From IMG/VR virus record IMGVR_UViG_3300045988_071280: 64,000 nucleotides of DNA; one strand, 5' to 3'. This document shows positions 24,181 through 63,686 of this stretch, piece by piece. A model generated the notes under the pieces. It was not told the DNA's origin and made no database searches. It was given only the letters and a program-made list of their open reading frames with translations. The DNA is from a virus. Position numbers and translations under genes: made by a program. Within the stretch, counting starts at the first letter, position 1. The number at the start of each line of letters is the position of its first letter.

Positions 24181-25063
24181 ATGAATAGAAAAGAAAGAAC
24201 TATCTCCGAAAATATGGAGAAATTGATGATAGACCAAATCTCAAGAGAATTATATAATCATAATGTATATAGAACATATGCGAATTATTATTATGTAAGA
24301 GGATTATTTAAATTACATCTTTATTATGAGATGAGATCTAATGAAGAATATAATCATCATCAATGGTTAGTTGATAGATTATATAGGGCTGGAGTTGATT
24401 TCAATTATCCAGAAGTGCCAGCTATTAAATCTAATCATGTTATATTAAAGCCAGAAGATAGTTTCGGTAAAACTGTTGATTTAGAAATTGAGACCACCAT
24501 GTGGATATCTAAAATGATTGAAGCTGCACGAGAAGAGAAAGATTGGCAAACTGAGGGATGGTTGAAGAGGACATTAATGGAAGAGCAGATAGATTTCTGT
24601 CTGAAAGTATGGTAACATACAGGTGAATAGATCAAAATCGGTGGAATCTATTTTAGATAATACCGAGGTAAGTATAAATCTAAAGAATTTATACCACTGT
24701 AACGCGTAGGTATTGAAACTATATTTAAATATAGAATAAAATATACCCAAGAGTGATCTACTCCTATTATTTAAATAGGATGAAAATGTACGCTGAACCG
24801 TCTGATGATTAAATCAGAATATCTTTATTTACATCTTCAATAAAGTAAGGAGGAGACTCCCGGAAGTAAGAGATAAAAAACTCTTATGATAACAAAATTG
24901 GGAAGAAGAAGATGTTAGCCGAACAATCTTAACAATGTCTGAGGAAGATACTGACTGGCAGACTAAGGAAGATACTATTCTATCATATTATAATGGATTG
25001 AATAGAGTAATAGAAGGAGCTAGAAATATTATTGATAATAACTCTTTTCTTAAACAAAGATAA
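24181..25063 (+). CDS. ferritin-like di-iron protein, two exons (24181-24590, 24901-25063)
   Basis: Four-helix-bundle signature: ELYNHNVYRTYANYYY, NEEYNHHQW (ExxH), DLEIET, and after splicing LMEEQ-M-EEEDVSRTIL (the ferritin EEQxEEE helix). Spliced length is 573 nt, in frame. Confidence 0.6.
24591..24900 (+). mobile_element. ORF-less group I intron, family 2 (~310 nt)
   Basis: Begins after a U and ends in G. Shares the blocks gtaacgcgtag, ccaagagtg, atgtacgctgaac and tatgataacaaaattg with the introns at 50277 and 54757. The 5' boundary is uncertain by about 6 nt (alternative at 24596). Confidence 0.7.
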
Positions 25064-25082
25064 TAATTTAATATAATAACTT

Positions 25083-30616: not shown

Positions 30617-30671
30617 ATGGAAAATTTTGTCTGATAAAATGCTATAAATATTAATACTTAAAGATGAGAAA

Positions 30672-30809
30672 ATGACTAGTATAAATCTATGTAGATGTCC
30701 TTATTGTGGATCCTACCATTATGAAGTAGGGTATTTTACATCTGGAGCTAACTGTAGATGTTGTGATTGTGGAAGTATGTTTTGGTATAATTTTAGTTTG
30801 AATACTTAA
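30672..30809 (+). CDS. small zinc-ribbon protein (45 aa)
   Basis: MTSINLCRCPYCGSYHYEVGYFTSGANCRCCDCGSMFWYNFSLNT*. Preferred over the antisense ORF 30687-30902. Confidence 0.45.
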   Translation: MTSINLCRCPYCGSYHYEVGYFTSGANCRCCDCGSMFWYNFSLNT

Positions 30810-30819
30810 GTAAAAAGTT

Positions 30820-31020: not shown

Positions 31021-31023
31021 GTT

Positions 31024-31215: not shown

Positions 31216-31218
31216 ACT

Positions 31219-36580: not shown

Positions 36581-39500
36581 TGATTTATTACGTAACAAAA
36601 GCTTCTGAACTATATAAATCTAATAGATATACTATTATATCCCCTGAAGAGTCGTTAAAATTACTACATCCATTAAAATATGTAGGAACAGATACTGAAA
36701 CTGAAGGATTAGATTGTCATAGTAAGAAACTTTTATCTATTCAATTTGGATGTAGGGATTTTCAAGTAGTTATAGATTGTACTACTATAAATCCCATTAT
36801 ATATAAAGATTATTTAGAATCCGAAAGAATTTTTCTTTTATGGAATGCTAATTTTGATCTTAAATTCTTCTATAAAATAGGAATCTTTCCAGATAATATC
36901 CGAGACTTGATGTTATCTGAAAAAGCTATATATCTAGGATATCCTTCTGGTATGCATAGTATGGCTTTGAAAGAAGCTGCTTGGAAGTATCTAAAAAAGA
37001 GTCTAGATAAATCTGTTAGAGGAAAAATTATCACTCAAGGTTTAAATGAAGAAACTATCGTATATTCCGCAGAGGATGTTGAGCACTTGGAGGATATAAT
37101 GATTGCTCAACAACCAGAATTAGATAATCAAAATTTAAATGCAGCACTTAAATTAGAAAATGAATATGTTAAAGTAAATGCTTATTTTGAATTTTGTGGA
37201 GCTAAATTAGATATTTCTAAGTGGAAGGAGAAAATGAAGAGGGATCAGGAGAACTTAAATAAAGCTAAAGATATCCTCGATTCATGGGTTGTTGATTGGG
37301 AAAATGATAGAATATCTAGAGAATCTGAGTTAGTATATTTAGATGTTTCCAAATTTAGAGGGGATAATGTTATAGAAGAAGATAGGAAAAAATTAAAATT
37401 TGCAAAGAGAAGAAAAGAGTCCGACATCAGAGAGAAAGATGGCACCTTAATTGCAGAAGCATATGAGAAAGAAGTTAAGAGGAAGTATTCTAGTATAAAT
37501 ACTCAGGGGAATTTATTTTCCGGGTTTGATTTAACCCCTAAGTGTACTATCAACTGGAAAAGCTCTGCACAAGTATTACTTCTATTCGAAGAATTAGGCA
37601 TAAAATGTTCTACAATAGATCCGAAAACCAAAGCTTTCAAAAAGTCTATAAATGAAAAAGTTATAGCTCCACAAAAGAAAAAGTTTCCGATTATTGAGTT
37701 GTATCTTAATTTTAAAGAAGCAGAGAAGTTAGTAGATTCTTTTGGACAGAAATTTTTGGATTTTGTTAATCCAGCTACTGGAAGAATACATTCTACTTTT
37801 CATCAGTTTGGTACGGATACGGGGAGATTGTCGTCTACAAGTCCTAATCTACAGCAATTACCAAAGGATGCACTTACTAGATCATGCTTTGTAGCAGAAA
37901 AAGGGAATAAATGGATTAGTTGTGACTATTCTGGTTAAAATTGTCATATATAAATGTAATTTTTCTTCATTAATAAAATTTAATAAAATATTTGGATTAA
38001 TCCTGACTAATCTGTATCTTTGCATATTAATCAATACATTTTTATTATGTCAAAGAGAATCACTAAAAGTCAAGAAAATGAAATTATTAAATTGTATGTA
38101 GAGGAAAATAAATCCTCTAAAGAAATTTCGGAGATTATAGGAATCTCTAGTAGTTCAGTATTAAGAGTTTTAAAGAGAAATAATATTGAAACTAGATCTA
38201 AAGCTCCAGTTAGGATACCTAATAAGTTTGGTGAAGAAAAAGAAAAAGAAATTATTAGATTATATACAGAAGAAAATAAAAGTACATTAGAGATTGCAAA
38301 TATTTTCGAAACTTATAATACTTCTATTAGAAGAGTTTTAGAAAGAAATAATGTAAAAATTCGTTCTTATAGTGAAGCTCAACGCTATATAGAGTTAGAA
38401 GATATATCTCTAAAAGAGGGTACTAGAGACTTTGATTATTTTTTAGGGTTATTAGCTACAGACGGATGTGTAACAGAAAATAAGATAGTATTAGATTTTA
38501 GTGAAGAAAACAAGGAACTTTTAGACTATTGGAATGATTTTTTAGGGAATAAATGTAACATTACTATTTCCATTCATAAAGTTTTTAAAGTTCCACAATA
38601 TAGAATAGCTTTTAGGAATAAAGAAGTTGTTAAATATTTAGCTACCTTTGGAATAGTCCCTAGAAAATCCTTCAATTTGAAACTAAAATACATTAATTGG
38701 GATGTATTAAGAGGCATTATTGACGGGGATGGATGTATTTCTTCTACTAATTCAGGAAATACAATAAAATTAGGAATCACTTCTGCATGTAAAGAATTCC
38801 TAATTCAAATCCAAGAATTTCTAGAAGGCGAAGGAATTACTTCTTTTATAAATGAAAGTAAAAGAAACGAAAATCCAATATTTGATCTTTTTGTATATAA
38901 AACTAATGATTTAATGATAATACATAAACATTTATATACTGATGCTCATTACTTTCTTAAAAGAAAAGAGAGTAATTTTGGCCCAATATTAAAGAAATTT
39001 AATATATGTAACTCCGTAAATTCAGTTAACGATGAGCATTCCAAGACTGAGCCAAGCCTTATAGAGGAAGGTGCAGAGACTAGAAACGGAGAACCTAAGG
39101 AATAGTATTAGTATATACTATTCTATGGTTAAGGTATAGTCCAGTGTTGACACACTGCAAGAAAGTTTCATTATGGCATCTCTATCCAATGATTCCGCTA
39201 TGTTAGATGAGCTACTTAGGGGATCCGGTGACCTTCATTCGCTAACAGCTCGAATGGTGTTCGAAGAGATACCAGATGATACACCACTTAAAGAAATTAA
39301 GACAAAATACCATGATCTCAGACAAAAAGCTAAAGGTTATGAATTTTGCTTTAATTATGGAGGAAATGCCTCTACTCTAGTAAAAAATTATGGGATAGAT
39401 GAGGATTATGCGAAATCTATTTACGATAACTACATGTCTGGTTTTGATGGTTTATGTAGATATCAGAAAAATCAGAGAGATTTTGTTAATAGATATGGTT

Positions 39501-40261
39501 ATATTATATTAAATAAACTAGGTCTTCGTGCTCATATATATGACTTCTCTGATTGGGAATATTTAAAGCAGAATAACCCAAGAGAGTATAGACAAAGGAA
39601 AGCAGCTTCAGAAAAGCAGGCAATCAACTATAAAATACAGGGCTCAGGTGCTGCAATGTGGAAATTGGCAATGGTAAAGATATTTAATTATATTAAAAAG
39701 AATAATTATCTTAATATAGTTAAATTATGTGTGCCAGTACACGATAATTCTCAACTTTGTCGTGTTAAAACTTGGTTAATTGCTGGGAATCTTTAAAATA
39801 CTATATACTACAAAAATATTGAAAAATATTTTGAATGTTTTAATAAATATAGTATATCTATGTTAAATATAATATAGAGATAAGACAATCAGCAGCTTTT
39901 TCCTAAGTAATACAATTATAAGGAAAGAAGTTCAGAGACTATCTAGAAATAGAGTAAGCTCCAAGAGGAGTTGAAACGCCAAGGTAAGACAGTATTAGAT
40001 TTTGAATCTCGTTAACTATCTAATATGCTAAATAGAATTGTCTTATAAGATATAGTCCGATACTGCAAGAGATTGCAGAAATATCGCGGAATCGGCGATA
40101 TTGTTAACATAAAGGAAGTCAACTTAGAAGCACCAGAGAACATAGCAGATGAGATAGCCTCTGTAGTAGTAACTGCAATGAAGTCTGCTGGAGTATATTT
40201 TTGTCCAAATGCTCCCTTAAATGTTACTTGTGATATAGGGGATTTTTGGATTCATGAATAA
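36580..40261 (+). CDS. family A DNA polymerase with 3'-5' exonuclease domain, three exons (36580-37935, 39158-39745, 40115-40261)
   Basis: Exo motifs GTDTETEGLD, LWNANFDLKF, YSAEDVEHL. Splicing restores motif A DYSG|QESFIMASLSND, motif B RQKAKGYEFCFNYGG and IQGSGAAMWK, and motif C PVHD|EVNLEAP. Spliced length is 2091 nt, in frame. Confidence 0.85.
38015..38022 (+). promoter_or_regulatory. -7 box TATCTTTG inside the intron, upstream of the HEG
   Basis: Exact TAnnTTTG, 24 nt upstream of the ATG at 38047. Confidence 0.4.
38047..39105 (+). CDS. intron-encoded double-motif LAGLIDADG homing endonuclease with two N-terminal HTH repeats
   Basis: FDYFLGLLATDGCV and VLRGIIDGDGCI. There is a duplicated N-terminal module (EIIKLYVEENKSSKEISEIIG / EIIRLYTEENKSTLEIANIF). 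The track start 38020 is a TTG; the ATG at 38047 is more likely. Confidence 0.85.
   Translation: MSKRITKSQENEIIKLYVEENKSSKEISEIIGISSSSVLRVLKRNNIETRSKAPVRIPNKFGEEKEKEIIRLYTEENKSTLEIANIFETYNTSIRRVLERNNVKIRSYSEAQRYIELEDISLKEGTRDFDYFLGLLATDGCVTENKIVLDFSEENKELLDYWNDFLGNKCNITISIHKVFKVPQYRIAFRNKEVVKYLATFGIVPRKSFNLKLKYINWDVLRGIIDGDGCISSTNSGNTIKLGITSACKEFLIQIQEFLEGEGITSFINESKRNENPIFDLFVYKTNDLMIIHKHLYTDAHYFLKRKESNFGPILKKFNICNSVNSVNDEHSKTEPSLIEEGAETRNGEPKE
39746..40114 (+). mobile_element. ORF-less group I intron (family 1, td-like), 369 nt
   Basis: Begins after ..cacgat| and ends ..aacataaag|. Contains agacaatcagcagc, cagagactatctagaaatagagta and gatatagtccg. Inserted in PolA motif C between D and E. 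Confidence 0.8.
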
Positions 40262-43523: not shown

Positions 43524-44960
43524 ATTTAATTGATTCTTTTTATCAAAAAGTAGAAGAAGGGAAGAAAGGGAATAATATGGGTATACCATCTGGATTTCCT
43601 AAATTGGATAAGTATATATATGGTATACAAAGAAGGTTTATGAGCACAGTTATTGCCGATTCGGGTAAATTAAGTGCCCCTATTTAATACAAATAAATAG
43701 AAAACCATTTGAATTGCTAGGAACTCGCGAAGATTTAGTAACTAAAACATCAGAAGAAATTCTAAATGTGAATGTTAAAAATACTAAATTATGTGATAAT
43801 TAGCAGCTAAGCTCCTAAGGATGTAATCTATGGAGAAAGTTCAACGACTATCTCGAAAGAGAGTAGGGCTAAGTAGCTCGAAGCGGATGGTATAATATTT
43901 TAATATTATAATGAAATAGTCTAATCTTACACGAAAGTGTAAGAGTATATATGGAAACGATATATACGTAATATAATTGGCAGGTAAGAGTTCTGTGGCC
44001 ATATTTATGTATATCTATAAACCTTTAGTTTATTCCTTAGAACATCCAGAGATACCTGTAAATATTCTCGCATTAAGCTTTGAAATGTCAAAAGAAGTAC
44101 TTCTCGCTAAACTTCTCTCTCTTTATATCCTTGATAAATATCATATTGATATTAGTTATTCTGAAATATTCTCATTAGATAAACCTGTTTCAGACGATAA
44201 ACTTAAATATATCTATGATGCTAGGGATTGGTTAACTAAAATAGATGATAAATTAACTATCTACGATACTCCTTTAAATTCTACTGGAGTATATAATATC
44301 CTCAGAACATGGGCTGGATATTTTGGGAAGTTTGAAACAGATGATAATGGTGAGAGGTATATAAAGAATGATAAAAATCAGTATTTAATAACAGTATTAG
44401 ATCATTGTAAGTTATTAAAGAATAATGGTTCCGGAATTAAGCATGAGATAGATGAAACAGCTAAACATTTTATTTATTACCGTAATTTGTGTGATATGAC
44501 AATATGTGCTGTTCAACAAGCTAATAGACAATTTAAATCTATGGATAGAAGAAATTCCGAACATAATTATCTCGAATTACAAGATGCTCAGGATACTGCG
44601 GACATGACACAAGCATCAGAAATTGTTATTGGTGTCTATCATCCATTCAGAGAGAAGAAGGCTAAGTGTGAAGGGTTTGATATTAAGAAATTACGAGATA
44701 ACTTTAGGTTGATCCAATTGCTTAAAGGACGATTTGGACAGTCTGATGTTGTTGAGGGTTGTATTTTCCAAGGAAGTATAGGATATTTCAAAGAATTAGA
44801 TCCTCCCGAAGATGGAAAGAGATTTGATTACGATAGAGTTCTGAGAATGGATTATTTATTCGAAGAATTTGATAATCAACAAAAGAAAAAAGAAGAGTTA
44901 GATAGAGTTATTAAAGAAGATGAAGAAGATGAAGTACTTGAATTTAATTTTAATGTATAA
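43520..44960 (+). CDS. DnaB-family replicative helicase, two exons (43520-43666, 43980-44960)
   Basis: Exon 1 (not in the ORF track) reads MNLIDSFYQKVEEGKKGNNMGIPSGFPKLDKYIYGIQRRFMSTVIADSG. Splicing creates the Walker A ADSG|AGKS. Downstream are VLDHCKLL (Walker B-like) and QQANR. Confidence 0.8.
43667..43979 (+). mobile_element. ORF-less group I intron (family 1, td-like), 313 nt
   Basis: Begins after ..tcgggt| and ends ..ataattg|gcaggtaag. Contains ttagcagctaagc, caacgactatctcgaaagagagtaggg and aaatagtctaat. Confidence 0.8.
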
Positions 44961-49513: not shown

Positions 49514-51863
49514 AGAAGTATTATCTAAATTTAAGATAAAAATATTATCAATAAATAGTTTAGATATAACTGATGAAGTATATTTTTCTGATAAATATTC
49601 TAATTATATATCTAATTCTAAATTAAAACTGATAAATCCTAATGAAGGAGGATCATTTAAAACATATTTAGAAGGATTAAAATCTAAATTTACCGGATCT
49701 TTAGATTTAGGATCGGCGGTTCATGAGTTAATTCTACAAAATGAATCGTTTGAATTAAATTCTTATACCAAATTATCTGGTAAAATTGGGAAAGTTATAG
49801 AGGTTGTATTTAAATATAGAAATAAGGGATATTCCATATTAAATGCAATTCGAAAAGCTTCCGAAGAAGTTTCTTATTACATATCTCAATTAACTGATAC
49901 AAGAATATCTAATATAATCTCATCTGGATTTAAATATTATCTTTATTTATATAAAAATAAAGATGTTAAATATGATAAAGAACAAATAATCTTGGATGAG
50001 AAATCTAGGGAAACTTGTATAAAATGTGTAGATTCTATTAGAAGAAATTCTGATGCAATGAATCTCCTTTCCCCAGATGAATTTTCATTAGATCAGTATT
50101 TAAATAAGAATGAGGATACTATTATAATAGAAATTTTAGTATCATTTCCTAATAGTTTAAATAATCCAAATGCACCCATTGTTGAGATTCCTTTAAAACT
50201 AAAAGCTAAGATAGATAATTGGAATTTAAATATAAATGAAGGTATTCTTAATTTAAATGATTTAAAGACTACTGGTAAGTAAATTTTTTTTATTGTATTT
50301 TATTTGTTTTATTTCATTAAATGTATTTAATTTGTATATTATTAAATAATACAATAAAAATACATTTATGAATAATTTAAATCAAGCTATTAGTGATTAT
50401 GAACATTTATTTATAGGAATTTGTGAATTAAGTAAAAAATATAAAATTCCTAATAAAGAAATTAGAAAAGCGTTAGAAGATAAAGGATATTATTTAGGAA
50501 AAGGAGTATCTCCAAAAAGTGTTGTGCATATTAAACTTGCAGTAGAGGAATATAAAAATATTCTTAATGCTGGTGAAGAACCTAATATTCATCAACTGGC
50601 ATTAAAGTATGATATTTCCGATACGTCTATAAAAGACAATTTAATTAGATTAAATCTTCCTGTTGTAAGATACCCTAAAAAAATCCATTTTGATGAACAT
50701 GTCTTTGATGTTATAGATACTGAAGAAAAAGCATATTGGCTAGGATTTTTAACTGCTGATGGGTATATTTGTAGTAGAGATAATACATTTGGAATTGGTC
50801 TAGCTAGTATAGATAAGCATCATGTAGAAAAATATGCCACATTTCTTAAATGTCCTCAACATGTTAAATTTAAGAATAACGAACATGCTGGAATATATAG
50901 ATGTGATTTAGGAAACGCTCATGTAAAGCAAGTATTACAAAAATATGGATTTACTGCTTCTAAATCTTTTGACTGTACCTTTTTAAAAGACCAGTTTTTT
51001 GCAAATTCCGATTTAATAAGACATTATATTAGAGGATATTTTGATGGAGATGGCTGTGTCAGTTATAAAAAAAAGTATAGAAAAACAATTAATGCCACTA
51101 TTTATATTCCGATAGTTTCTATAGTTGGAACAGAAGCTTTTTTACAAGAATTAAGAAATAAATCAAGTTTAATTTGTCTTTTTCAGTCACAACAAAATTT
51201 ATGGAATTTATATGGATCTGGAAAAAAGGCAAAAGATTTTCTTTATTACATTTATAATAACGCTACTATTTATCTAGATAGAAAATACAATATTTATAAA
51301 AATTATATTGCCCCACACTTAGAGAAATCGAGTGTTCCGCAGTGGCCAATATCGGTAGATACTGAAATGTAAATACCGAGATAAATTCAGAGATCACGAA
51401 AGGCTCTGAATCATCGTAACGCGTAGAAGGTGAATAAATATAATCCTTCCAAGAGTGGCTGCCACCTTAAAGGGTGAAAATGTACGCTGAACTATATCGA
51501 ATAACAAGATATAGAAATAAAGGATAAAAAGCCTTTATGATAACAAAATTGAAACCATGGTATTTATTCCCAGGATCTATAGTAAATGAAACTGGAGAAT
51601 TTGTTGAAGGGTCCTTCCAGCATTATCATTATTATCGCCAATTAGGTATGTATTACTGGATGTTATTATCTTATTTAAATTCTGAGAATTATGTAGTATC
51701 TAAATCATATTTAAATATTATATCAGTGCAAACTATTCCTAATTATTCTACTGTAGTATTTAGAATCCCGAATAAATGGTTTATTAAAGGATTAAAAGAA
51801 TTTAAAACATTATTATCTTACGCAGCTTATGCTGAATATAATAAAGAAAAAATATTATCATGA
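49482..51863 (+). CDS. PD-(D/E)XK-type nuclease, two exons (49482-50276, 51552-51863)
   Basis: GSAVHELIL, then ..KIDNWNL.. and LNLNDLKTTG|KPWYLF... (a D-x-K catalytic motif). Spliced length is 1107 nt, in frame. Confidence 0.5.
50277..51551 (+). mobile_element. group I intron, family 2, carrying a LAGLIDADG homing endonuclease
   Basis: Begins after ..actggt| and ends ..gataacaaaattg|aaacca. The 3' 180 nt share ataccgag, cgtaacgcgtagaa, ccaagagtgg and aatgtacgctgaac with the introns at 24591 and 54757. Confidence 0.75.
50368..51372 (+). CDS. intron-encoded LAGLIDADG homing endonuclease
   Basis: IDTEEKAYWLGFLTADGYI and IRGYFDGDGCVSY. Close paralog of 54855-55910. Confidence 0.85.
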   Translation: MNNLNQAISDYEHLFIGICELSKKYKIPNKEIRKALEDKGYYLGKGVSPKSVVHIKLAVEEYKNILNAGEEPNIHQLALKYDISDTSIKDNLIRLNLPVVRYPKKIHFDEHVFDVIDTEEKAYWLGFLTADGYICSRDNTFGIGLASIDKHHVEKYATFLKCPQHVKFKNNEHAGIYRCDLGNAHVKQVLQKYGFTASKSFDCTFLKDQFFANSDLIRHYIRGYFDGDGCVSYKKKYRKTINATIYIPIVSIVGTEAFLQELRNKSSLICLFQSQQNLWNLYGSGKKAKDFLYYIYNNATIYLDRKYNIYKNYIAPHLEKSSVPQWPISVDTEM

Positions 51864-53152: not shown

Positions 53153-56100
53153 ATGAAACTAGAATTATCTAAATCGATCTTAGAATCTATCTCAAGTAGA
53201 GTAAATAATGATATTTTTACATTTGATGATGTAGAAAGTGAATATAAATTGGATAATATTCAAGAAAAGTTATATAATAGATTATATAAAAACTATCAGG
53301 ATTTAACTCCACCACAATTTGATTTAGATACGTTTAGATTTACATATAAAATACTTTGTCAAAACTCTGGAGTAAAAAAGACTCCTCAGAAACAATTAAA
53401 TAAAGTTAAGGATAGAAAAATTGTATATGATGCTACTACTGATGAATCTTTCGAAAGTAGAATTGTTGGTTCATCTGTAAGAGATGAAGAAGGTAAAGTA
53501 ACACATTATGAATTTAGAATCCTTATTAGAGATAAAGAATCTTTTGAAGGTACTCTCACGTTATCTGAAATGCAGGATATTTATGTTGGATATTCTAATA
53601 GAGGATATAATTTATCAGCTAGGAAATTGTCTGAGAAATTCCCACAATATGATTTGATTCAATTAAAGAAGATTTTAAGAGCGTTTCAGATTACTAAAGA
53701 TTGTTACCCATTTGCTCCACATATTGCAGAAAGTAAGAGTAAAGAGGAATTAGAAAGGATGTTATTAGATTTAAAATTACATTCTGCTTCTAAGAATGCT
53801 GATAGAGATGAGGTACAAGATAAGAATAAATATATCTTAGAATTAACTAAGGAACTTAATAAGTATAGAGATAAAGAAACATTTGTTAAGGATTTACTTA
53901 GAATTCCTGTTAAATATAATACTCCTATAACGCCTTTATATTCCGATGCTAATGAATATACTAATACGTTAGTTATATTCTTGTCTGATATGCATATCGG
54001 AGCTTATAATCCTAAATATGGATTTATACAATTGGAAGATTATAATAAAGAAGAAATTAGTAGGAGATTAGATAAAGTATATAATTTTATTATTAATAAA
54101 TTATTTGATAATTTAATTATCTGTAATTTAGGAGATAGTGTAGATTCTTATAAAGGTGAAACTGTTAGAGGTCATGAATTACCTACTACTATTACTCCAA
54201 AAGAACAATCTAAGATGTATTTAGATATTATGTTAGGGTTCTTTAATAAATTACTTGATTATGTAGAAAATTCTCATATTAAATACATCTGTATTGGAGA
54301 TTCAAATCATTGATTGTATTTAAATACAATTTGTGCTAATAATAAGAAATTATTATTTGAAACTAGGTTAACTGCTGGGACGCCTGAGATGGTAATCAGC
54401 AACCAAGCTACAGATTTAAATTCTGTAGAAGGCTCATCGACTATTCCTGAAATGGAAGTAGAATCAAGCGATTCGAAATGCCTAGCCCTTAGCATTATAT
54501 CTAATATAGATATAGATATAGATGAAGGTGAAGAGATAGTCAGTTCTCATATTAATAAGGAAGTATGAGGAGGTTTTATTAACCCATATAAGAGTAGCGA
54601 ACTTATATGAACATAAAGGATGGTGACTGGGGATGGCTAAATAACGTTGTTCTTTCTGCTAAACTTAAAGAACTGAATATAGAATCCCACATTTCTGATC
54701 TTCCAATCGATAAATTTGATATCGGAAACAATTCTATATTATTCATGCATGGTGATATATTTTTCATATTTTTAATATAATTATTTAGTTTCCATGGAAA
54801 TAATTTATATATTTGTTAAATAATAATATATTTAATAAATAATAGAATTATAACATGGAAAAATTTTTAAATTTATTTTTGAGGAGTGAATTAAGTTTAC
54901 TCGATTTTTGTAAGCAATATAATCTATCTAGAGTTGAATTTGAAGGTTATATTAATGACAAAGGATATTATTGGAAGAATGGAAGGTCTGGCATAAAAGT
55001 TAACCTATTTAAACTGGCAATAGATGATTATGTAAATTCTTTAGAGAGTGTAGGAGCTTCTGCTAAAAGATTTGGAATTAATTCTCAATCTCTTAGTAAA
55101 GATTTAAAAGAATTAGATCTTTATGATGAATCCAGAAAAGGTAAGTCAATAAAAAAATATAATGAACGTATTTTTGATACTATTGACACAGAGGAGAAAG
55201 CATATTGGTTAGGATTTATCTTTGCTGATGGATATATATATTCATCCCCAATCGAAGAGAAAAAATCTAGAACAGATTGGAACTTTGAATTATGTGCTTC
55301 TGGTACTGATAAAGAACACATGGAAAAATTTGCCAAGTTTATAGGATACACTAAAGAATTAAAGATTACTAAAGCTGATAATAAAGGAAATACTAGATGT
55401 AGGGTATGTCTATCTAGTCAACATTTATGGGAAACACTTAATAGTTATGGTTGTACTCCTAGAAAATCTTTAACCTTAAAGTTCCCAAGTCTAAACATAT
55501 TTAAGGACGAGAGTTTAGTATGGGACTTTATAAGAGGTTATATAGATGGAGATGGGTGTATTTCATATGCAACTAAAGATCATTCTAAAATGCTCCTTTC
55601 CTTATTAGGAACAGAAGATTTTTTAAATTCTATACAAGATGTATTTTCTACTAAGTACACTTTGGAATATAATCATAATGATAAGAATTCTAAAACTAGA
55701 GTACTAGAAATAGCTTGTAGACCAGGGCTTAACATTTTACATAAATTATATTCACACTCAAAAATATATTTAAAAAGAAAATATGAAAGATATTTAGAAT
55801 ATTGCCGTCTATATGAGGAATCATATAGAGAATTAGAAACCAATAACGGGGAAGGCTGTGATGTCAATCCCGTGATAAGTACAGAAAGTAAAGAGTCTGT
55901 GCCATCGTAACGCGTAGAACTTGAACCTCGAAAGAGAATAAAATAGTTCCAAGAGTGGTTTCTACCCCAACACTTTTATAAGTAGTGGGTAAAAAGGTAC
56001 GCTGGACTATAGCAAAAAGAAGCTATAGAAGTTAGGATAAAAAGCCTAACGATAACAAAATCGAAAGATAGCGATTCCCAGTTTAAAGGAATGCCTCTTA

Positions 56101-56913: not shown

Positions 56914-57054
56914 TATAAAGAGAAATGGAAATTCTATTGAGTTTGATAATATTCAAGAATTTATTTAATCCAAAACAATAAATATGTATCTATATAAATC
57001 GAATTATTTAAATAAGGATATTTATTATATACTTAAATAAAATTTTATATAAAC

Positions 57055-58354: not shown

Positions 58355-61300
58355 ATGTACAATGATCAATCTAATGCTTTAGGAGAATTTATTTTTCAAT
58401 CTAAATATGCTAGATATAATTCTAATCTGAAAAGGAAAGAGACCTTTGAGGAATCTGTAGATAGAATATTACAGATGCATTTAAAACATCTTAAAGATAA
58501 ATATCCAGAAGTATTAAATAATGCAGAATTTAATAATGATTTATTAGAAGCCTTTGAGGAGTATAAAAATAAAAATGTTTATGGATCTCAGAGAGCTTTG
58601 CAATTCGGAGGTGATCCTATTTTAAGAAAGAATGAAAAAATCTTCAATTGTTCATATACTTATATAGATGATCTTGAGAGATTTAAACAAATTGAGTATT
58701 TACTATTATGTGGTTGTGGAGTGGGATGTTCTGTTGAATATAAACATGTGAATACACTTCCTGAGATGGCAGAAGTACTTAATAGTTCAGTTGAAGAGTA
58801 TATAATCGAGGATAGTATTGAAGGATGGTCAAATTCTATAGATAGACTAATTCGATATTATTTTAATTCGGATATAGCATATCCTAGATTTGATTATTCT
58901 AAAATCAGACCTAATGGAAGTTTGATATCAGGAGGATTTTTAGCTCCTGGCCCTGATGGTTTAAGAAATGCTCTAAATAAAATAGACTCTTTACTTAATA
59001 TTATTCATAAAACTACTAAAAGATTATCTCCACTTAACTGTGCTGATATATTATCACACTGTGCTGATTCTGTTCTCAGTGGTGGCGTCCGTTAGACATT
59101 GGCGGCTTATAATAGTAATATTATAATGATAATTCTGTGAATTCAGGGAATATCTTATATAGATAAGACAATCCTGATCCAAGCACTTAAATATAGTGAA
59201 GGAGCAACGACTATCCCAGACGTGGGAGTAGGGTAATATCATCTACCCGAAGCGCAGAACATCCTATTAAAGGATGATGATATAGTCTAAACTATATAGT
59301 GATATATAGAGTCTTTGCGATGTCTACGTGGAGACGATGATATAATAACTAATAAAGGATTAGTTAAATTAAAAAATATTAAAAATGGAGATTTAGTATT
59401 AACACATGATGGATCTTTTCAAAAAGTTATTAACAAGGAAAATAATGGGATTAGAAAAGTAGATAGAATAACTACGAATTTAAATATAAATTATTCTACA
59501 AATAATCATAGGTGGTTAGTATTAAATAATCTTTCTGGAGAATTTAAGGAAGTGTATGCATCAGATTTAAAAGAGGGGGATGTTTTATTATTAAATAACA
59601 GAAGTGTATCAGGAGAATATCAGGATTTTCCTAAATATACTGATTTAAAATTACCTAAATTAGATGAAGATTTAGCTTGGTTTATTGGATATTTCTTAGG
59701 GAATGGTAATGTATCTACTAGAACTAGATCTGATACTGGGTTTGAAGATAATAAATTTAGAGTTTGTATCCCAACTAATTACCCTACTATAGTTAATAAG
59801 GTAAAGAGTATCTTTGAAAAAATTGTTGGAACATATAGTATACATAAAAAGAAAAGTGCTATAGAACTTACATCAAGTAAAAAGTGTTTTGTTGAATATT
59901 TTCTAAATATCAAACAACCTAATACTCCAATCCAAATTCCGGATTTTATAAAACAGAATACATCATCTATACAATTAGCATTCTTAGCTGGAGTATTAGA
60001 TTCAGATGGAAGTGTTAGAAATGATAATAAGAATGGAAAAGGATATGGACAAATTACTTTAAATAGTTCTAAATATTCTATATTTATTACTCAACTTCAA
60101 GCTTTATACAATTTAAATGGAATTATTACTAAGACTCAAACAAAAATTAGAAAAGGAAAATCTAATGAGTATATTCTTAAAACAGTTTCATTTAAATATA
60201 GAAAAGAATGTGTAGAGAAATTAAGTCTATATTCCGAAAAGCTTAAGGAAGATTATATTTTAGAAGAAATTTCTAAAGAGAAAGACGGAATTTATTTTCC
60301 TAAATATTTAGCAATAAGAGGAGAAGGTAATAAGATTTGGAATAGTTGTAAAAGATGTTCTTTAAATAAAGTATTAGAATATTATCCAGATTTAAATTAC
60401 ATTCCTGCTGTAATTACTAATATAGAAAAGGACGTTGAAGAAGTAGAAGTATTTGATATAGAAGTAGAAAATAATCATAACTTTTATGTAAATGGAGTAC
60501 TAACACATAATTCTGCTTTAGCTATATTATTCTCTCCTAATGATGAGGAGATGTATAATTCTAAAGTAGGTAATTGGTTTTATGATAATCCTCAACGTGG
60601 AAGATATAATGCTTCTGTTGCTTTGGAGAGAAGTGATGATAATAAAGAAGTATTTAATAAAATCTTTGAATCTACTAAAGAATATGGAGAACCTGGGTTT
60701 TTCTTTAGGTCTGATTCTGGTATAGGATGTAATCCATAAAATGATGTGGCTATATATAGTGATATATATAGAAAACTAGGCTAATTCGGGGAATCTCTTA
60801 TTTAATAAGACAATCCCGAGCTAAGTGATTAAATATTTAATCTAAATGTGTAACGACTATCCTGAAAAGGAGTAGAACCAAGTGGTTCGAAATGCCTAGC
60901 GTCTTATATTAAATATATAAGATGATGATATAGTCTAATCTCTATAGTGATATAGAGGATCTTTAATTAGATCAGATAAGAAGTAACGAGCTTATCTTAA
61001 TATAATGGTTTTGAAATAGGTTTTAAACCAGTATTAGAAATACAGAAACCTGATGGAGTATCTAAACAAACTGGGATACAGTTTTGTAATTTGATCTCCA
61101 TCTCAGGTAAAGAATCCACAACAGAAGAGAAATTCTATAAACAATGTAAAGCAGCTGCTACTATTGGAACAATTCAAGCTACATATAATTCCTTCCCTTT
61201 CTTAGGTGAAGTAACAGAGCAATTAGCTAAGAATGATCCATTAATTGGAGTATCTATTAGCGGGATTATGATGAATCCTGATATATTATTAAATAAAAAT

Positions 61301-63686
61301 ATTCTACGTAAAGGAGCTGAGATTATTAAAGAGCAAAATAATAAAATAGCTAACTTACTAGGAATTAATCCTGCATCTAGGACTACTTGTATTAAGCCTA
61401 AAAATATGATTAAATAGTAGGTTTATAGTAAGACATTTTTTAATTTTGTAGTATTATAAAAAATACTTAAAATTAAAAAATATGAAATCACAATTAATAA
61501 TCAAATTAGAAAATTTAAAAAATTTAAAAACTCTTGTTGAAGAAGAACTATATTCTGCAAAGGATATATGTAACTTTCTAGAATTACCAGAAGAAAAAAA
61601 TACTATTAGAAATATTAATAGTTACTTAAGACGATATAAAATAAAGTCTCCTTATCCAAAAATAACAGATCGTAATTCTAGAATTATAGAAAAATATAAA
61701 TCAAAAGTACCTGAATGGTGGAATCATCCAAAATTAAAAACTGTAATTGAATTTAAACTAAAAAATAATTTAGTTATAAATTATGCAGATAAGGATAAAA
61801 AAATTGCTAGATATGTAATCTCTGTAAAATATCATCCAAGAGCTTCATCTGCAAATCAAGTAAAGGCTCATATTATATTATGGGAATTACATAATAAACA
61901 ATTATTTCCTGATAATTATGTAATGATTCCAAAAGACGGAAATTTTTTAAATTTAAATATTGATAATTTTGATGTAATGTCAAACGAAGAATATAGATCT
62001 ATCACAGCTACTAGTAAAAAAAATCATTTTTATACTACTGGTAGTAAATCTGGAGTATGTTATAAAGGAGGATGGAAAACTATCTCTAAAAAATTTCTTC
62101 AGACAAATACATCATGCGAAATATGTGGATGTTCAAATAAATATAAGTTAAATGTACATCATATAATTAGCTACTATTTATTTGATAAATCTAAGGATGC
62201 ACATTTTTTAGAAAACTTAATTTGTTTATGTGATTCATGTCATCAAAATCTACATTTAGGAAAATTAAACTTATTGGGCATCTTATCTGAAAAGATAAGA
62301 TTAAAACTTCTTAAATTGCTGGAAACACTTAAAGAAAAATTTAAAAATGATGATAAATTATTATTAGTAAATTTTTCAATTAAGTCAATCAGCAGCCAAG
62401 CTGATTTGAAATCAGAAGGTTCAACGACTATCTCGAAAGAGAGTACATCACAAGCTAATGGTGATGGAAATAGGAAGCATCTTAACTCAAATGAGAAAGA
62501 TGATGATATAGTCTAATCTATATGGTGACATATAGCAGTTCATAGGAGAACGTATATAAGAGTTGCGTCTTATATAGAATATATAATGGATGGAAATATA
62601 AGTACCTTAACTGGAAACACTCCTGGATGTCATGGTCAACATGCGAAAAGATATATCCGGAGAGTTCAGGTTAATAAAGAAGAAGAAGCAGGTAAAGTAT
62701 ACGCTAAATATAATCCTAAAGCAGTAGTAGAATCTGTTTGGTCTAATAATCATACTGATAATTGTATTATGTTCGCAATAGAATCGGATGATAACGTTAA
62801 AACCAAATCGGAATTATTAGGAATTAGACAATTAGAAGTAGTTAAATTACTATATAATAACTGGATTCTTCCAGGAATGGTAGATCCTACTAATCCTGTA
62901 TGTAATAATGTATCTAATACTGTTATAGTTCCAAATCAAGATTGGCATAGAGTAAAAGATTGGGTATGGAATAATAAAAACTTTATTGCTGGAGTATCAT
63001 TTATTCCTTCAACTGGAGACATTACTTTTACACAACCTCCATACTCAGAAGTATTTATTCCAGAAGAATTGGTAGAAATGTATGGAGACGGAGTAATATT
63101 TGCCTCAGGTTTAATCGTAGACGCAGAAAAAACTTTCGGAAATTTATGGAGAGCTTGCGATACATTTAATTATAAAGGGGAGAAGTTATATTCTACTGTT
63201 GAAGATGCTAAAGAATTTATTAAAGAACTTAATGTAACAGAAGATCCCTCTTATTTAAATAAACCTCATTCTGAATGGGTAAAAGCTAATTCAATTCAAT
63301 ATAATAATTGGGTTAAAGTATTATCCACATTGGGATATACAGAAGAATTTATAGATGAAATTTTAGATTCTGACATAGAAATTCCAATTGCAGAAATTCA
63401 GAAGTATTTAGATAAAACAGCATTTACTAATGTAAAAAATCTAAATGCTAAGAGAGATATAATGCGGAGAATGAAAAAATTCGGAGATACATATTTTGGA
63501 GAAGATTATAACACTATGATTGAAGCTCTTAAATATGTACAATTATATCACGATTGGTGTGATATAACTAGAAACTATACTCCTATCGACTGGACTATAG
63601 TTAAATGGAAAAAAGTACTGATCGATGCAGATACAACAGGAGCTCAGGCCTGTTCTGGAGGACAATGTGATATAACTAAAATATAA
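58355..63686 (+). CDS. nrdJ: class II (B12-type, NrdJ-like) ribonucleotide reductase: four exons (58355-59092, 59318-60737, 61008-61399, 62589-63686) plus an intein in exon 2
   Basis: N-terminus FQSKYARYNSNLKRKETFEESVDR. Splicing plus intein removal restores SGGVR|R|SALAILF, GIGCNP|CFEIGF (NPC thiyl-radical loop) and TTCIKP|DGNISTLTG. The extein total is 2457 nt, in frame. The class assignment rests on motif memory only. Confidence 0.8.
59093..59317 (+). mobile_element. ORF-less group I intron (family 1, td-like), 225 nt
   Basis: Begins after ..gtccgt| and ends ..gtctttg|cga. Contains agacaatcctgatccaagc, caacgactatcccagacgtgggagtagggt, gatgatatagtctaa and the hairpin ctatatagtgatatatag. Confidence 0.8.
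59321..60511 (+). mobile_element. intein (397 aa) with LAGLIDADG endonuclease domain
   Basis: Starts CLRGDDDIITNKG, block B TNNH, DOD motifs LAWFIGYFLGNGNV and LAFLAGVLDSDGSV, ends NFYVNGVLTHN followed by extein Ser. It sits inside the RNR motif GGVRR|SA. Confidence 0.9.
60738..61007 (+). mobile_element. ORF-less group I intron (family 1, td-like), 270 nt
   Basis: Splits the Cys codon of NPC (t|gt). Ends ..aatataatg|. Contains agacaatcccgagctaag, taacgactatcctgaaaaggagta, ttcgaaatgcctagc and gatgatatagtctaa. Confidence 0.8.
61441..61448 (+). promoter_or_regulatory. -7 box TAATTTTG inside the intron, upstream of the HEG
   Basis: Exact TAnnTTTG, 33 nt upstream of the ATG at 61482. Confidence 0.4.
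61482..62516 (+). CDS. intron-encoded HNH homing endonuclease
   Basis: CEICGCSNKYKLNVHHIISY...NLICLCDSCHQNLH is a classic HNH with a zinc-binding Cys pair. The last ~40 codons overlap the ribozyme core blocks. Confidence 0.85.
   Translation: MKSQLIIKLENLKNLKTLVEEELYSAKDICNFLELPEEKNTIRNINSYLRRYKIKSPYPKITDRNSRIIEKYKSKVPEWWNHPKLKTVIEFKLKNNLVINYADKDKKIARYVISVKYHPRASSANQVKAHIILWELHNKQLFPDNYVMIPKDGNFLNLNIDNFDVMSNEEYRSITATSKKNHFYTTGSKSGVCYKGGWKTISKKFLQTNTSCEICGCSNKYKLNVHHIISYYLFDKSKDAHFLENLICLCDSCHQNLHLGKLNLLGILSEKIRLKLLKLLETLKEKFKNDDKLLLVNFSIKSISSQADLKSEGSTTISKESTSQANGDGNRKHLNSNEKDDDIV

What the first reader, a model, noticed from the sequence alone, without database searches (positions are those of the whole stretch)
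24591..62588. Two intron sequence families, one T4 td-like, have spread to unrelated genes
Family 1 has 7 members: 37936, 39746, 43667, 54311, 59093, 60738 and 61400. They share the ordered blocks (a)gacaatc(c/a)..agc, aacgactatc...gagta(ggg), ga(t)atagtc(t/c) and a ggtgaca-type hairpin. Their 3' ends read ..acataaag| or ..ataat(t)g|. From memory this matches the 3' half of the T4 td intron (AACGACUAUCCC..GGGAGUAGGGU..GAUAUAGUCUG..GGUGACA..GAACAUAAUG), which is subgroup IA2. Family 2 has 3 members: 24591, 50277 and 54757. They share ataccgag, gtaacgcgtag, ccaagagtg, (a/g)gtacgctg(a/g)ac and gataacaaaat(t/c)g|. Closely related cores in non-homologous target genes point to ectopic transposition within this genome lineage, not just homing.
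Basis: partly seen in the sequence, partly recalled or inferred. Interest (0 to 1): 0.7.

Follow-up and report, generated by a model that had tools for sequence, protein, structure and literature searches.

The report
Ten group I introns, crAss-like phage
A 38-kb stretch of a crAss-like gut phage carries ten genuine self-splicing group I introns of three structural types, but they are site-specific mobile elements drawn from intron pools shared by many phages, with no sign of a recent burst of copying inside this genome.

Summary
All ten sites are group I introns. Each 5' exon ends in U, paired with G in P1, and each intron ends in G. Splicing restores continuous DNA polymerase A, DnaB-like helicase and ferritin domains. 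Nearly identical phages in IMG/VR carry empty alleles that match my junctions to the base.

- Intron 10 starts at 54754, not 54757.
- The intron at 37936 (I1) does not belong to family 1. It is a compact group I core without P7.1/P7.2.
- Family 1 therefore has six members.

Family 1 is truly T4 td-like (IA2 architecture). It aligns with a real td intron and shows strong covariation. Family 2 also has group I topology with strong covariation, yet Rfam RF00028 misses it entirely. It is common in other phages (cr6_1, Staphylococcus 6ec, Clostridium, Lak, and at least 120 IMG/VR stretches).

The ectopic-transposition reading is mostly unsupported. Cores within the genome are 49-76% identical, no closer than to introns of unrelated phages. 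Across 50 related loci, cores cluster strictly by insertion site. One family-2 subgroup, at three sites with 82-87% identity, is the only hint of spread within this lineage.

High intron and intein density in crAss-like phages was already published (Yutin 2021).

The parts
24591..24900 (+). I8: ORF-less family-2 group I intron (310 nt) in a ferritin-like gene. It splits a codon, giving EEQ-M-EEE. P1 is CAGAU|/GUCUG.
   Evidence: Exact empty allele in L019 (CAGAT|GGAAGAAG). The Ferritin Pfam match runs through the junction. Family-2 profile E = 1e-43. Structure tested.
37936..39157 (+). I1: compact group I intron (1222 nt) in DNA polymerase A motif A (DYSG|QE). It has no P7.1/P7.2 and is not a family-1 member. 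The core lies at about 38964-39157 and the P1 3' strand at 38976-38983.
   Evidence: Empty alleles in L007, L008, L013 and L020. RF00028 scores 47.2 bits, E = 2e-11 on the core, against a gathering score of 50. P1. PolA Pfam match is continuous after splicing.
38047..39105 (+). LAGLIDADG homing endonuclease ORF of I1, with N-terminal HTH repeats. It starts in the P1 loop and reads into the ribozyme core.
   Evidence: Pfam LAGLIDADG_3, E = 6.5e-15. Coordinates.
39746..40114 (+). I2: ORF-less family-1 (IA2-type) intron (369 nt) in DNA polymerase A motif C (VHD|E). It has a long P5 extension and no P2.
   Evidence: Exact empty allele in L009 (CACGAT|GAAGTC). Alignment and structure. Relatives carry a version about 555 nt longer.
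43667..43979 (+). I3: ORF-less family-1 intron (313 nt) in the Walker A motif of a DnaB-like helicase (ADSG|AGKS).
   Evidence: Exact empty alleles in L041 and L045. The DnaB_C Pfam match spans the junction.. L018 and L021 carry a version about 880 nt longer.
50277..51551 (+). I9: family-2 intron (1275 nt) in a probable PD-(D/E)XK nuclease, after DLKTTG. The core lies at about 51337-51551 and the IGS UUGCC at about 51308-51312.
   Evidence: Empty alleles in L036, L040, L045 and L049. Family-2 profile E = 2e-47. The intron is 99.5% identical in L051, whose flanks are 76-91% identical.
50368..51372 (+). LAGLIDADG homing endonuclease ORF of I9.
   Evidence: Pfam LAGLIDADG_3, E = 1.4e-9. It is 32% identical to the I10 endonuclease and 38% to cr6_1 gp43.
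54311..54618 (+). I4: ORF-less family-1 intron (308 nt) in a metallophosphoesterase-like gene, at GDSNH|D.
   Evidence: Exact 308-nt absence in 12 related loci. Empty alleles in L038 and L049..
54754..56063 (+). I10: family-2 intron (1310 nt; start corrected from 54757) in the same gene, at MHG|KD. The P1 3' strand AUAUUGCCGU is at about 55799-55808 and the core at about 55830-56063.
   Evidence: Intron-less alleles in L041, L043, L044 and L053 read CATGGA|AAAGAT. Family-2 profile E = 4e-51. L047 and L051 carry versions with the endonuclease deleted.
54855..55910 (+). LAGLIDADG homing endonuclease ORF of I10. It reads through P3-P6 and stops in J6/7.
   Evidence: Pfam LAGLIDADG_1/3. It is 40% identical to cr6_1 gp43..
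59093..59317 (+). I5: ORF-less family-1 intron (225 nt) in the ribonucleotide reductase gene (GGVR|R), one codon upstream of an intein.
   Evidence: RF00028 scores 99 bits. The empty allele reads GGVRR|SALAILF. It occurs only together with the intein.
59321..60511 (+). Intein of 397 aa with a LAGLIDADG endonuclease in the ribonucleotide reductase, 3 nt downstream of I5. It is not an intron but is physically linked to I5.
   Evidence: Pfam Intein_splicing, LAGLIDADG_3 and Hint_2. Net 1416 nt (225 + 1191) is absent from 18 relatives.
60738..61007 (+). I6: ORF-less family-1 intron (270 nt) in the ribonucleotide reductase NPC.E motif. It splits the Cys codon (T|GT).
   Evidence: RF00028 scores 92 bits. 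Exact 270-nt absence in L035, L036, L037, L044 and L053. It is 68% identical to T4-type td introns over 82% of its length.
61400..62588 (+). I7: family-1 intron (1189 nt) in the ribonucleotide reductase (CIKP|DG). The P1 3' strand is at 62271-62279 and the core at 62296-62588.
   Evidence: RF00028 scores 80 bits. Exact 1189-nt absence in eight loci. Most relatives carry a mini-version in which 1009 nt are replaced by 93 nt. P1.
61482..62516 (+). HNH homing endonuclease ORF of I7. It starts in the P1 loop, reads through the whole core and stops just after P7'.
   Evidence: Pfam HNH, E = 3e-6. Sequence.

Best explanation
The region holds ten self-splicing group I introns of three RNA types.
- Six are T4 td-like IA2-type introns (I2-I7).
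- Three belong to a second IA-like type, here called family 2 (I8-I10). Its P7 reads GCGUA/UACGC. It has a single P7.1 arm, no P7.2, and a conserved 3' tail GGAUAAAAAGCC..GAUAACAAAAUUG.
- One is a compact core without P7.1/P7.2 (I1).

The host is a crAss-like phage. Each intron sits inside a catalytic or otherwise highly conserved motif of a replication or nucleotide-metabolism gene. After transcription each should be removed by the standard guanosine-initiated two-step transesterification, which restores the reading frame.

At the DNA level each intron behaves as an independent, site-specific mobile element. It is gained by endonuclease-mediated homing, and both the endonuclease ORF and the intron can later be lost. 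This gives a presence/absence mosaic among near-identical phages.

The similarity between introns in different genes reflects old common ancestry within intron classes that circulate widely among phages. It does not reflect recent copying within this genome.

Shown: intron boundaries, RNA structures with covariation, restored protein domains, empty alleles, endonuclease domains, and similarity relationships.
Inferred: self-splicing activity, endonuclease activity and the homing mechanism.
For: Group I identity.
- RF00028 scores 99, 92 and 80 bits for I5, I6 and I7 and 47 bits for I1.
- The family-1 structure on alignment A1, which includes a real td intron, is 84.5% paired. 23 pairs have compensatory changes and 0 of 500 shuffles reach this.
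- The family-2 structure on A2 (11 sequences) is 90.9% paired. 30 of 41 pairs are compensatory, 0 of 500 shuffles reach this, and slid controls stay at or below 46%.
- A U.G pair can be drawn at every 5' splice site (P1 for I5-I7, I1 and I7, I10, the rest by my own reading of the sequences), and every intron ends in G.

Exon continuity.
- Spliced proteins give single Pfam stretches for DNA_pol_A, DnaB_C and Ferritin.
- Empty alleles match the junctions exactly.

Mobility.
- LAGLIDADG or HNH ORFs are present in I1, I7, I9 and I10.
- Relatives carry versions of I2, I3, I7 and I10 with or without an endonuclease-sized insert.
- I9 is 99.5% identical in L051 although its flanks are 76-91% identical.
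- The intron at site 39632 is 99.3% identical between L016 and L019, whose flanks match the window at 92-97% and 81-90%.

Shared pools rather than local copying.
- Identities and nearest neighbours are given.
- Profile hits cluster strictly by site.
- Family 2 occurs in cr6_1, 6ec, CB452P1 and Lak-A1 and in at least 120 IMG/VR stretches.
- Family 1 hits td and the Staphylococcus, Pectobacterium, Yersinia and Lak phage introns.
Against: - No splicing or cleavage experiment or transcript data were available, so activity is inferred.
- Rfam does not recognise family 2 at all and missed I2-I4 in the 44-kb scan. Their group I assignment rests on my own structural alignments.
- The I9-like subgroup (I9, an upstream site in the same nuclease gene, and a dUTPase site) has 82-87% identical cores at three sites within this phage group. 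Some new-site colonisation in the lineage is therefore plausible.
- The identity comparisons use short, saturated alignments and a small outgroup sample. No proper phylogeny with support values was made.
Confidence: 0.85

Rival explanations
1. One or two founder introns multiplied inside this phage lineage by ectopic transposition into unrelated genes, through reverse splicing or relaxed endonuclease specificity. The members within the genome would then be each other's closest relatives.
For: - Homologous cores occupy eight different genes or sites in one genome.
- I5 and I6, both in the reductase gene, are the closest family-1 pair at 72-73%.
- The I9-like subgroup shows 82-87% identity at three sites in this phage group.
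- I9, I10 and the cr6_1 intron share the IGS UUGCC and lie after a GGU codon; s497xx has UGCC and lies after a Gly codon whose bases I did not read. Retargeting by P1 pairing could produce this pattern.
Against: - Most identities within the genome (49-67%) equal or fall below those to introns of unrelated phages, including td, cr116_1, cr6_1, 6ec, L025 and L028.
- No two sites share a core at 93% identity or more in 143 profile hits from 50 loci.
- Endonucleases are discordant with cores. LAGLIDADG, HNH and a third type sit on 76-87% identical cores, and the I9 and I10 endonucleases are only 32% identical.
- Both families are widespread outside this lineage.
Confidence: 0.12
2. The elements are not functional introns. 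They would be decayed insertions or intergenic repeats that split the genes into pseudogenes or separately translated fragments.
For: - Rfam at gathering threshold reports only three of the ten.
- Several host genes appear as separate ORFs in a mechanical ORF list.
Against: - The ribozyme helices are kept by compensatory changes.
- Junctions fall so that exons join in frame inside catalytic motifs of essential genes.
- Alleles with and without each intron coexist in phages that are 97-99% identical.
- U.G pairs at the 5' splice sites and terminal G residues are present throughout.
Confidence: 0.02
3. A sub-hypothesis for the I9/I10/cr6_1-type subgroup only. It spreads to new sites by reverse splicing into transcripts that carry GGU|AAR, guided by its conserved internal guide sequence. 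Different endonucleases are acquired afterwards.
For: - The IGS UUGCC is conserved and pairs with ..GGU plus the first intron bases in I9, I10 and cr6_1; s497xx has UGCC at the same place.
- Insertions lie after Gly GGU in I9, I10 and cr6_1 (each followed by a Lys codon) and after a Gly codon in s497xx, in four unrelated contexts: the nuclease DLKTTG|K, the phosphoesterase MHG|K, the ATPase GTG|KT and the nuclease DIG|T.
- The endonuclease type differs between closely related cores.
Against: - The literature I read reports no direct experimental evidence that group I introns transpose by reverse splicing in vivo (PMC3984707).
- The 'postRNR' member appears to have a different IGS, and I did not resolve its junction.
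- Four sites is a small sample, and Gly-Lys is common in P-loop-like motifs that endonucleases also favour.
Confidence: 0.2

Closest known systems
Bacteriophage T4 td, nrdB and nrdD (sunY) introns, subgroup IA2 by the usual classification (my knowledge). The td intron was examined here in the T4-type phage e11/2, locus L001.
   Same: - I2-I7 share the whole core architecture with td: P3-P9 with P7.1 and P7.2, and an identical P7 GACUA/UAGUC.
- I5-I7 share a P9 with a GUGA-type loop. I4, I6 and I7 share P9.2 and an ..AUAAUG or ..AUAAAG 3' end.
- The pattern of homologous cores in unrelated nucleotide-metabolism genes of one phage is the classic T4 situation.
   Different: - There are six such introns in 23 kb rather than three per genome.
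- Sequence identity to td is only 47-61% on the MAFFT alignment (A1) and up to 67% on profile columns.
- In I7 the endonuclease ORF starts in the P1 loop and overlaps the core, rather than looping out of P6 as in td.
- The host is a crAss-like phage of Bacteroidota, not a T4-type phage.
Staphylococcus phage Twort orf142 introns (three related IA2 introns in one gene; from my knowledge, and mentioned in PMC3984707 and PMC11878797).
   Same: Several related IA2-type introns lie in a single phage gene. Here three are in the ribonucleotide reductase gene and two in DNA polymerase A. Staphylococcus Twort-like phage introns are among the BLAST hits of I6.
   Different: The window also carries an intein 3 nt from one intron and a second intron class in other genes. 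No exon-skipping or splicing data exist here.
Intron- and intein-rich crAss-like phages of the Delta and Zeta groups (Yutin et al. 2021, PMC7886860; Zeta phages, PMC12386605).
   Same: The host is a crAss-like phage. Many group I introns and inteins lie in conserved genes. Endonuclease content differs between close relatives. [quoted passage not shown]
   Different: - Those studies found introns through endonuclease protein domains. In the passages I read they did not classify ribozyme cores, did not list ORF-less introns (six of the ten here), and did not map exact empty alleles.
- I did not establish the group of this phage. Its DNA polymerase A is 44-54% identical to Steigviridae polymerases.
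Bastillevirinae phage introns (PMC11878797).
   Same: Phage introns fall into several IA-like clades. Intron clade and endonuclease type are decoupled. The Rfam and GISSD models miss or only partly align phage introns.
   Different: The phage group and host genes differ.
Collaborative (trans) homing of ORF-less introns by a neighbouring endonuclease (reviewed in PMC3984707).
   Same: ORF-less I5 lies 3 nt from the insertion point of an endonuclease-bearing element. In the 21 related loci covering the site it is present only together with that element (3 loci) and absent with it (18 loci).
   Different: The partner here is an intein-encoded LAGLIDADG endonuclease rather than a free-standing gene. 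No cleavage-site data exist.

Membership tests
Group I self-splicing intron | The 5' exon ends in U, which forms a U.G wobble with the internal guide sequence in P1, and the intron ends in G. | tested here: met
   All ten introns meet this. P1 pairings are shown and in the sequences. I10 meets it only after the boundary correction to 54753|54754. P1 of I9 is short, at 5 bp.
Group I self-splicing intron | A conserved core of P3-P9 with the P3/P7 pseudoknot, supported by covariation. | tested here: met
   - Family 1 plus td: 84.5% paired, 23 compensatory pairs, 0/500 shuffles.
- Family 2: 90.9% paired, 30 of 41 pairs compensatory, 0/500 shuffles.
- I1 rests only on its alignment to RF00028. No covariation test was done for it.
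Group I self-splicing intron | The Rfam RF00028 gathering score of 50 bits is reached. | tested here: inconclusive
   - I5, I6 and I7 score 99, 92 and 80 bits.
- I1 scores 47.2 bits, just below threshold.
- I2, I3 and I4 were not reported at E<1 in the 44-kb scan.
- Family 2 is not reported even at E<=10 on 341 nt.
The model is known to be incomplete for phage introns (PMC11878797).
Group I self-splicing intron | Removal restores a continuous, conserved coding sequence. | tested here: met
   Single Pfam stretches run through the junctions for PolA, DnaB_C and Ferritin. Natural intron-less alleles match the predicted junctions for all ten introns.
Group I self-splicing intron | Guanosine-dependent self-splicing activity. 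| not testable with these tools
   This needs in vitro transcription and splicing assays, or transcript data.
Subgroup IA2 (T4 td type) | Two extra hairpins, P7.1 and P7.2, lie between P7 and the 3' strand of P3. This definition is recalled from Michel and Westhof 1990 and was not re-read here. | tested here: met
   - I2-I7: P7.1 is 100% paired with 3 compensatory pairs, and P7.2 is 86% paired with 3 compensatory pairs, in register with td.
- I1 does not meet this; it has neither hairpin.
- Family 2 does not meet this; it has one arm, P7.1, with an optional inner hairpin.
Subgroup IA2 (T4 td type) | Detectable sequence homology to td over the core. | tested here: met
   I6 is 68% identical to td introns of T4-type phages over 82% of its length.
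Family that multiplied within this genome (ectopic transposition in this lineage) | Members in the genome are closer to each other than to introns of other genomes. | tested here: not met
   I8 is closer to the cr6_1 and 6ec introns. I9 and I10 are as close to cr6_1 as to each other. I4's nearest relative is L025 and I6's is cr116_1. The distance to td is similar to distances inside the genome.
Family that multiplied within this genome (ectopic transposition in this lineage) | Highly similar copies occur at different insertion sites in the phage group. | tested here: not met
   At a 93% identity threshold, the clusters of 95 family-1 and 48 family-2 profile hits appear site-specific, judged from cluster membership and locus positions. 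The best pairs between sites are 87% and 82%, within the I9-like subgroup.
Homing (endonuclease-mediated, site-specific mobility) | An intron-encoded homing endonuclease gene is present. | tested here: met
   LAGLIDADG in I1, I9 and I10, and HNH in I7. I2-I6 and I8 are ORF-less in the window, but relatives carry longer versions of I2 and I3.
Homing (endonuclease-mediated, site-specific mobility) | Presence/absence polymorphism occurs at exactly the same site in near-identical genomes, and the intron is better conserved than its flanks. | tested here: met
   I9 is 99.5% identical in L051 against 76-91% for its flanks. The site-39632 intron is 99.3% identical between L016 and L019, whose flanks match the window at 92-97% and 81-90%.

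The most novel reading that the evidence does not exclude
Family 2 may be a distinct group I subclass that no public model covers. It resembles IA introns in P4-P6 and in its 3' tail, but P7 reads GCGUA/UACGC, it has a single P7.1 arm and it lacks P7.2. It is abundant in phages of very different hosts and is completely invisible to Rfam RF00028. If so, Rfam-based censuses of phage introns would be systematically too low.

Within it, the I9/I10/cr6_1 subgroup may colonise new GGU|AAR sites through its conserved guide sequence while swapping endonuclease cargo.

Separately, the ORF-less intron I5 may be mobilised by the intein endonuclease located 3 nt away.
Probability: 0.3. Interest if true: 0.55.

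Novelty: new member of a known kind. Interest (0 to 1): 0.4.

Why it matters
The window gives a clean, base-resolved example of how densely group I introns can populate a crAss-like phage. Ten introns and one intein lie in 38 kb, all inside catalytic motifs, and each has natural empty alleles in sister genomes.

Three practical points follow.
- Six of the ten introns are ORF-less, so surveys based on endonuclease domains would miss them.
- One whole class, family 2, is missed by the Rfam model. Intron counts and gene calls in gut phage genomes are therefore likely to be underestimates or mis-annotations.
- Similar core blocks in different genes of one genome are not, by themselves, evidence for transposition within that genome. 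They need an outgroup test.

The general phenomenon was already published (Yutin 2021, PMC7886860). T4 and Twort set the precedent for related IA2 introns in unrelated genes.

Tried and rejected
- Megablast of 24 kb against the phage collection found no close relative, only one 300-nt hit to a cr6_1 endonuclease region. That hit turned out to be the family-2 core.
- My first P1 scan used fixed-length pairing. It gave misleading guide sequences for I9 and I10 that actually lie in J3/4 and P5. I corrected them using homologous introns and empty alleles.
- My first structure string nested P3 and P7 wrongly, so the result is discarded. One search uses a pseudoknot notation.
- I did not build a covariance model. 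The forecast calibration time for about 240 positions was a risk, and nhmmer profiles were sufficient.
- The 9-mer GATATAGTC with one mismatch is not above chance in this AT-rich DNA. An exact copy at 31515 led nowhere: Rfam finds nothing in 30400-32000 and the family-1 profile does not hit there.
- Pfam on ten ORFs from variable regions found no free-standing endonuclease that could serve the ORF-less introns.
- I checked whether the cr116_1 nuclease intron occupies the I9 site. It does not; it lies about 25 codons downstream.
- I could not assign family 2 or I1 to a named subgroup. No GISSD models were available, and my recollection that IA1 has P7.1/P7.1a is only a lead.

Full report
**What the window is.** The DNA has about 28% G+C. 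It has no close relative in the phage collection. Its DNA polymerase A is 44-54% identical at protein level to polymerases of crAss-like phages, namely cr111_1, cr116_1 and the PhiCrAssBcn isolates. cr111_1 and cr116_1 are classified in Steigviridae. IMG/VR holds many contigs of 80-167 kb that are 97-99% identical to the window. I did not determine which crAss-like group the phage belongs to.

**Checking the ten sites.** I set intron boundaries by joining reading frames. I then tested them in three ways.

1. Spliced proteins give single, continuous Pfam matches through the junctions:
   - DNA_pol_A covers residues 323-693.
   - DnaB_C covers residues 21-316.
   - Ferritin covers residues 18-147.

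2. A U.G wobble with a guide sequence can be drawn at every 5' exon end, and every intron ends in G (P1, the rest read by me from the sequences).

3. Near-identical IMG/VR phages carry intron-less alleles whose breakpoints coincide with my junctions.
   - The gap sizes are exact: 308 nt for I4, 270 nt for I6, 1189 nt for I7, 313 nt for I3, plus the 39745|40115 junction of I2 and the 24590|24901 junction of I8.
   - Direct reading of the empty alleles confirms I1, I2, I3, I4, I6, I7, I8 and I9.
The GAT at 54754-54756 is therefore intronic and the intron is 54754-56063. Only this boundary gives a U.G pair, in a 10-bp P1 (AUGGU|GAUAU with AUAUUGCCGU).

**Where the introns sit.** All ten lie inside conserved motifs:
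- DNA polymerase A motif A (DYSG|QE) and motif C (VHD|E)
- helicase Walker A (ADSG|AGKS)
- a phosphoesterase-like protein at GDSNH|D and MHG|KD
- ribonucleotide reductase at GGVR|R, NP|C.E and CIKP|DG
- a ferritin-like protein at EEQ-M-EEE
- a probable PD-(D/E)XK nuclease at DLKTTG|KP

The phosphoesterase and nuclease assignments rest on motifs I read in the sequence and on annotated homologues in cr6_1 and cr116_1. Pfam gave no hit for either.

**Family 1.**
- Rfam reports I5, I6 and I7 at 99, 92 and 80 bits.
- BLAST of I6 against phage genomes finds the td intron of T4-type phages, 68% identical over 82% of the query. It also finds introns of Staphylococcus, Pectobacterium, Yersinia, Pseudomonas and Lak phages.
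- I fetched a real td intron from phage e11/2. It aligns with I2-I7 over the entire core.
- I tested a structure with P3, P4, P5, P6, P7 (as a pseudoknot), P7.1, P7.2, P8 and P9. It is 84.5% paired. 23 pairs show compensatory change, none of 500 shuffles reaches this, and slid controls are at most 47% paired. P7 is invariant. P3, P4, P7.1, P7.2 and P9 carry the covariation.

**I1 does not belong to family 1.** It has no P7.1/P7.2 and no P9.1/P9.2. It matches a family-1 profile only at E = 0.086. Its core still aligns to RF00028 at 47.2 bits, so it is a group I intron of a different, compact type.

**Family 2.**
- The three members share long blocks. GTAACGCGTAG occurs three times against 0.04 expected.
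- Rfam gives nothing, even at E<=10 on the 341-nt I8 region.
- BLAST finds homologous cores just downstream of endonuclease ORFs inside split genes of other phages. These are the crAss-like phage cr6_1 (an ATPase gene) and Staphylococcus phage 6ec (tape measure gene). Clostridium phage CB452P1 and the Lak-A1 megaphage also have them.
- On an 11-sequence alignment I propose this order: P3, J3/4, P4, P5, P4', P6, J6/7 (GUAA), P7 (GCGUA), P7.1, the conserved CCAAGAGUG, P3', P8, J8/7, P7' (UACGC), P9, P9.1 (loop AUAAAAAG), and the tail GAUAACAAAAUUG.
- Of these, P3, P4, P6, P7, P7.1, P9 and P9.1 were tested; P5 and P8 were not, because their register varies between sequences. The tested structure is 90.9% paired. 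30 of 41 pairs have compensatory changes, 0 of 500 shuffles reach this, and slid controls are at most 46%.
- The P4-P6 segment and the 3' tail resemble td and family 1.
- Mosaic forms exist. An intron found in relatives at window position 44724 has a family-1 P7' and a family-2-like tail.

Family 2 is thus a common phage intron class with group I topology that the Rfam model does not cover.

**Are the introns closely related, and did they spread within this genome?**
- On the alignments, family-1 cores in the window are 49-62% identical to one another, apart from I5-I6 at 73%. They are 47-61% identical to td.
- On profile match columns, the nearest neighbours are often introns from other phages:
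  - I4 is closest to L025 (75%), a phage whose polymerase is only 42% identical.
  - I6 is closest to cr116_1 (73%).
  - I5 is closest to I6 (72%) and L028 (71%).
- In family 2, I8 is 67% identical to I9 and I10, but 73% to cr6_1 and 72% to 6ec. I9 and I10 are 76% identical to each other, and each is 77% identical to cr6_1.
- The LAGLIDADG proteins of I9 and I10 are 32% identical, against 38-40% to cr6_1 gp43.
- Family-1 and family-2 profiles found 95 and 48 cores in the window and 50 related or comparison loci. At 93% identity these cluster strictly by insertion site, giving at least 14 and 6 site clusters.
- Additional introns that relatives carry at sites empty in the window (36708, 37847, 39632, 44724) are not close copies of any window intron.

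The inference of ectopic transposition within this genome lineage is therefore not supported for most members.

There is one exception, a subgroup formed by I9, an intron about 570 nt upstream in the same nuclease gene in relatives ('s497xx'), and an intron in a dUTPase gene beyond the window end ('postRNR').
- Their cores are 82-87% identical.
- They carry three different endonuclease types: LAGLIDADG, a Vsr-like ORF (judged by eye), and HNH.
- I9, I10 and cr6_1 lie after a Gly codon GGU that is followed by a Lys codon, and share the guide sequence UUGCC. s497xx lies after a Gly codon (bases not read) followed by Thr and has UGCC at the same place.
- This is compatible with occasional new-site colonisation, but it does not prove it.

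**What the population data do show.**
- Every intron in the window is absent from some near-identical phages.
- Versions without the endonuclease exist for I7 (most relatives) and I10 (L047, L051). Longer versions exist for I2 (about 555 nt more) and I3 (about 880 nt more).
- I9 is 99.5% identical in L051, whose flanking genes are only 76-91% identical to the window.
- The site-39632 intron is 99.3% identical between L016 and L019. Their flanks match the window at 92-97% and 81-90% respectively.
- Exon codons next to some junctions differ synonymously between filled and empty alleles. An example is TCT GGT against TCG GGA at I1.

These are the signatures of endonuclease-driven homing with cycles of gain and loss, as reviewed in PMC3984707.

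**Comparison with what is known.**
[quoted passage not shown] 2021. They identified the introns through endonuclease domains (PMC7886860).
- Differences in endonuclease ORFs between close Zeta phages were noted in PMC12386605.
- Related IA2 introns in unrelated genes of one phage are the classic T4 and Twort picture (my knowledge; PMC3984707).
- For Bastillevirinae phages, PMC11878797 described decoupling of core type and endonuclease type, heterogeneity of 'IA2', and the incompleteness of the Rfam model.

The finding is therefore a new, well-resolved member of a known kind. The added value lies in the base-exact intron map, the recognition of six ORF-less introns, and the family-2 class that Rfam does not see.

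**Limits.**
- There are no transcript or biochemical data.
- The distance comparisons are on short alignments, without a supported tree.
- The subgroup names for family 2 and I1 are unresolved.
- P1 of I9 is weak (5 bp).
- The 5' junction of the 'postRNR' intron was not resolved.

Noticed in passing
window 59093-60511: The ORF-less intron I5 (59093-59317) and a 397-aa LAGLIDADG intein (59321-60511) in the ribonucleotide reductase gene are separated by a single codon (CGA). In the window and 3 of 21 related loci (L035, L038, L050) both are present; in the other 18 loci both are absent, and never only one. This suggests the intein endonuclease co-mobilises the intron.
   Followed up: partly
window 38047-39105, 50368-51372, 54855-55910, 61482-62516: All four endonuclease ORFs start in the P1 loop, 5' of the P1 3' strand, and read on into the ribozyme core. 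The I7 ORF covers the whole core and stops right after P7'. The I10 ORF stops in J6/7. Three different endonuclease families on related family-2 cores end with the same core-encoded tail, NNGE(G/S)CD(V/A)NPVI...
   Followed up: partly
L007-L055; window positions 36708, 37847, 39632, 44724, about 497xx, 58715, 58950 and beyond 64000: Close relatives carry further insertions at sites that are empty in the window. Three more lie in DNA polymerase A, one in the helicase, one in the nuclease and two in the reductase (one looks like a second intein). One lies in a dUTPase gene downstream of the window end. The shared intron repertoire of this phage group is much larger than any one genome shows.
   Followed up: partly
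L002 (cr116_1) 2230-3157: The Steigviridae phage cr116_1 has a family-1 type intron with an endonuclease in its PD-(D/E)XK exonuclease gene. The record annotates it as three separate CDS. It lies about 25 codons downstream of the site that I9 occupies in the window's homologue.
   Followed up: yes
window 10123-14474: A tRNA gene cluster. ARAGORN finds Met, Cys, an 84-nt Met-like tRNA and Gln. Rfam adds a fifth tRNA at 11033-11102 that ARAGORN does not report.
   Followed up: no
window 4000-8000 versus 8000-64000: GC skew is negative at 4-8 kb and consistently positive from 8 kb onward. This fits a switch of coding strand near 8 kb.
   Followed up: no
window 42265-42780: Two adjacent small paralogous ORFs, both starting MPYY.., at 42265-42525 and 42529-42780. 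A 363-nt segment (42389-42751) is missing in L016, L017, L036 and L037, which looks like gain or loss of one tandem copy.
   Followed up: no
window 49076-49380 and 56353-57584: These segments are replaced by unrelated sequence of different length in many near-identical relatives. Pfam finds no domain in the window ORFs there, so the nature of these variable cassettes is unknown.
   Followed up: partly
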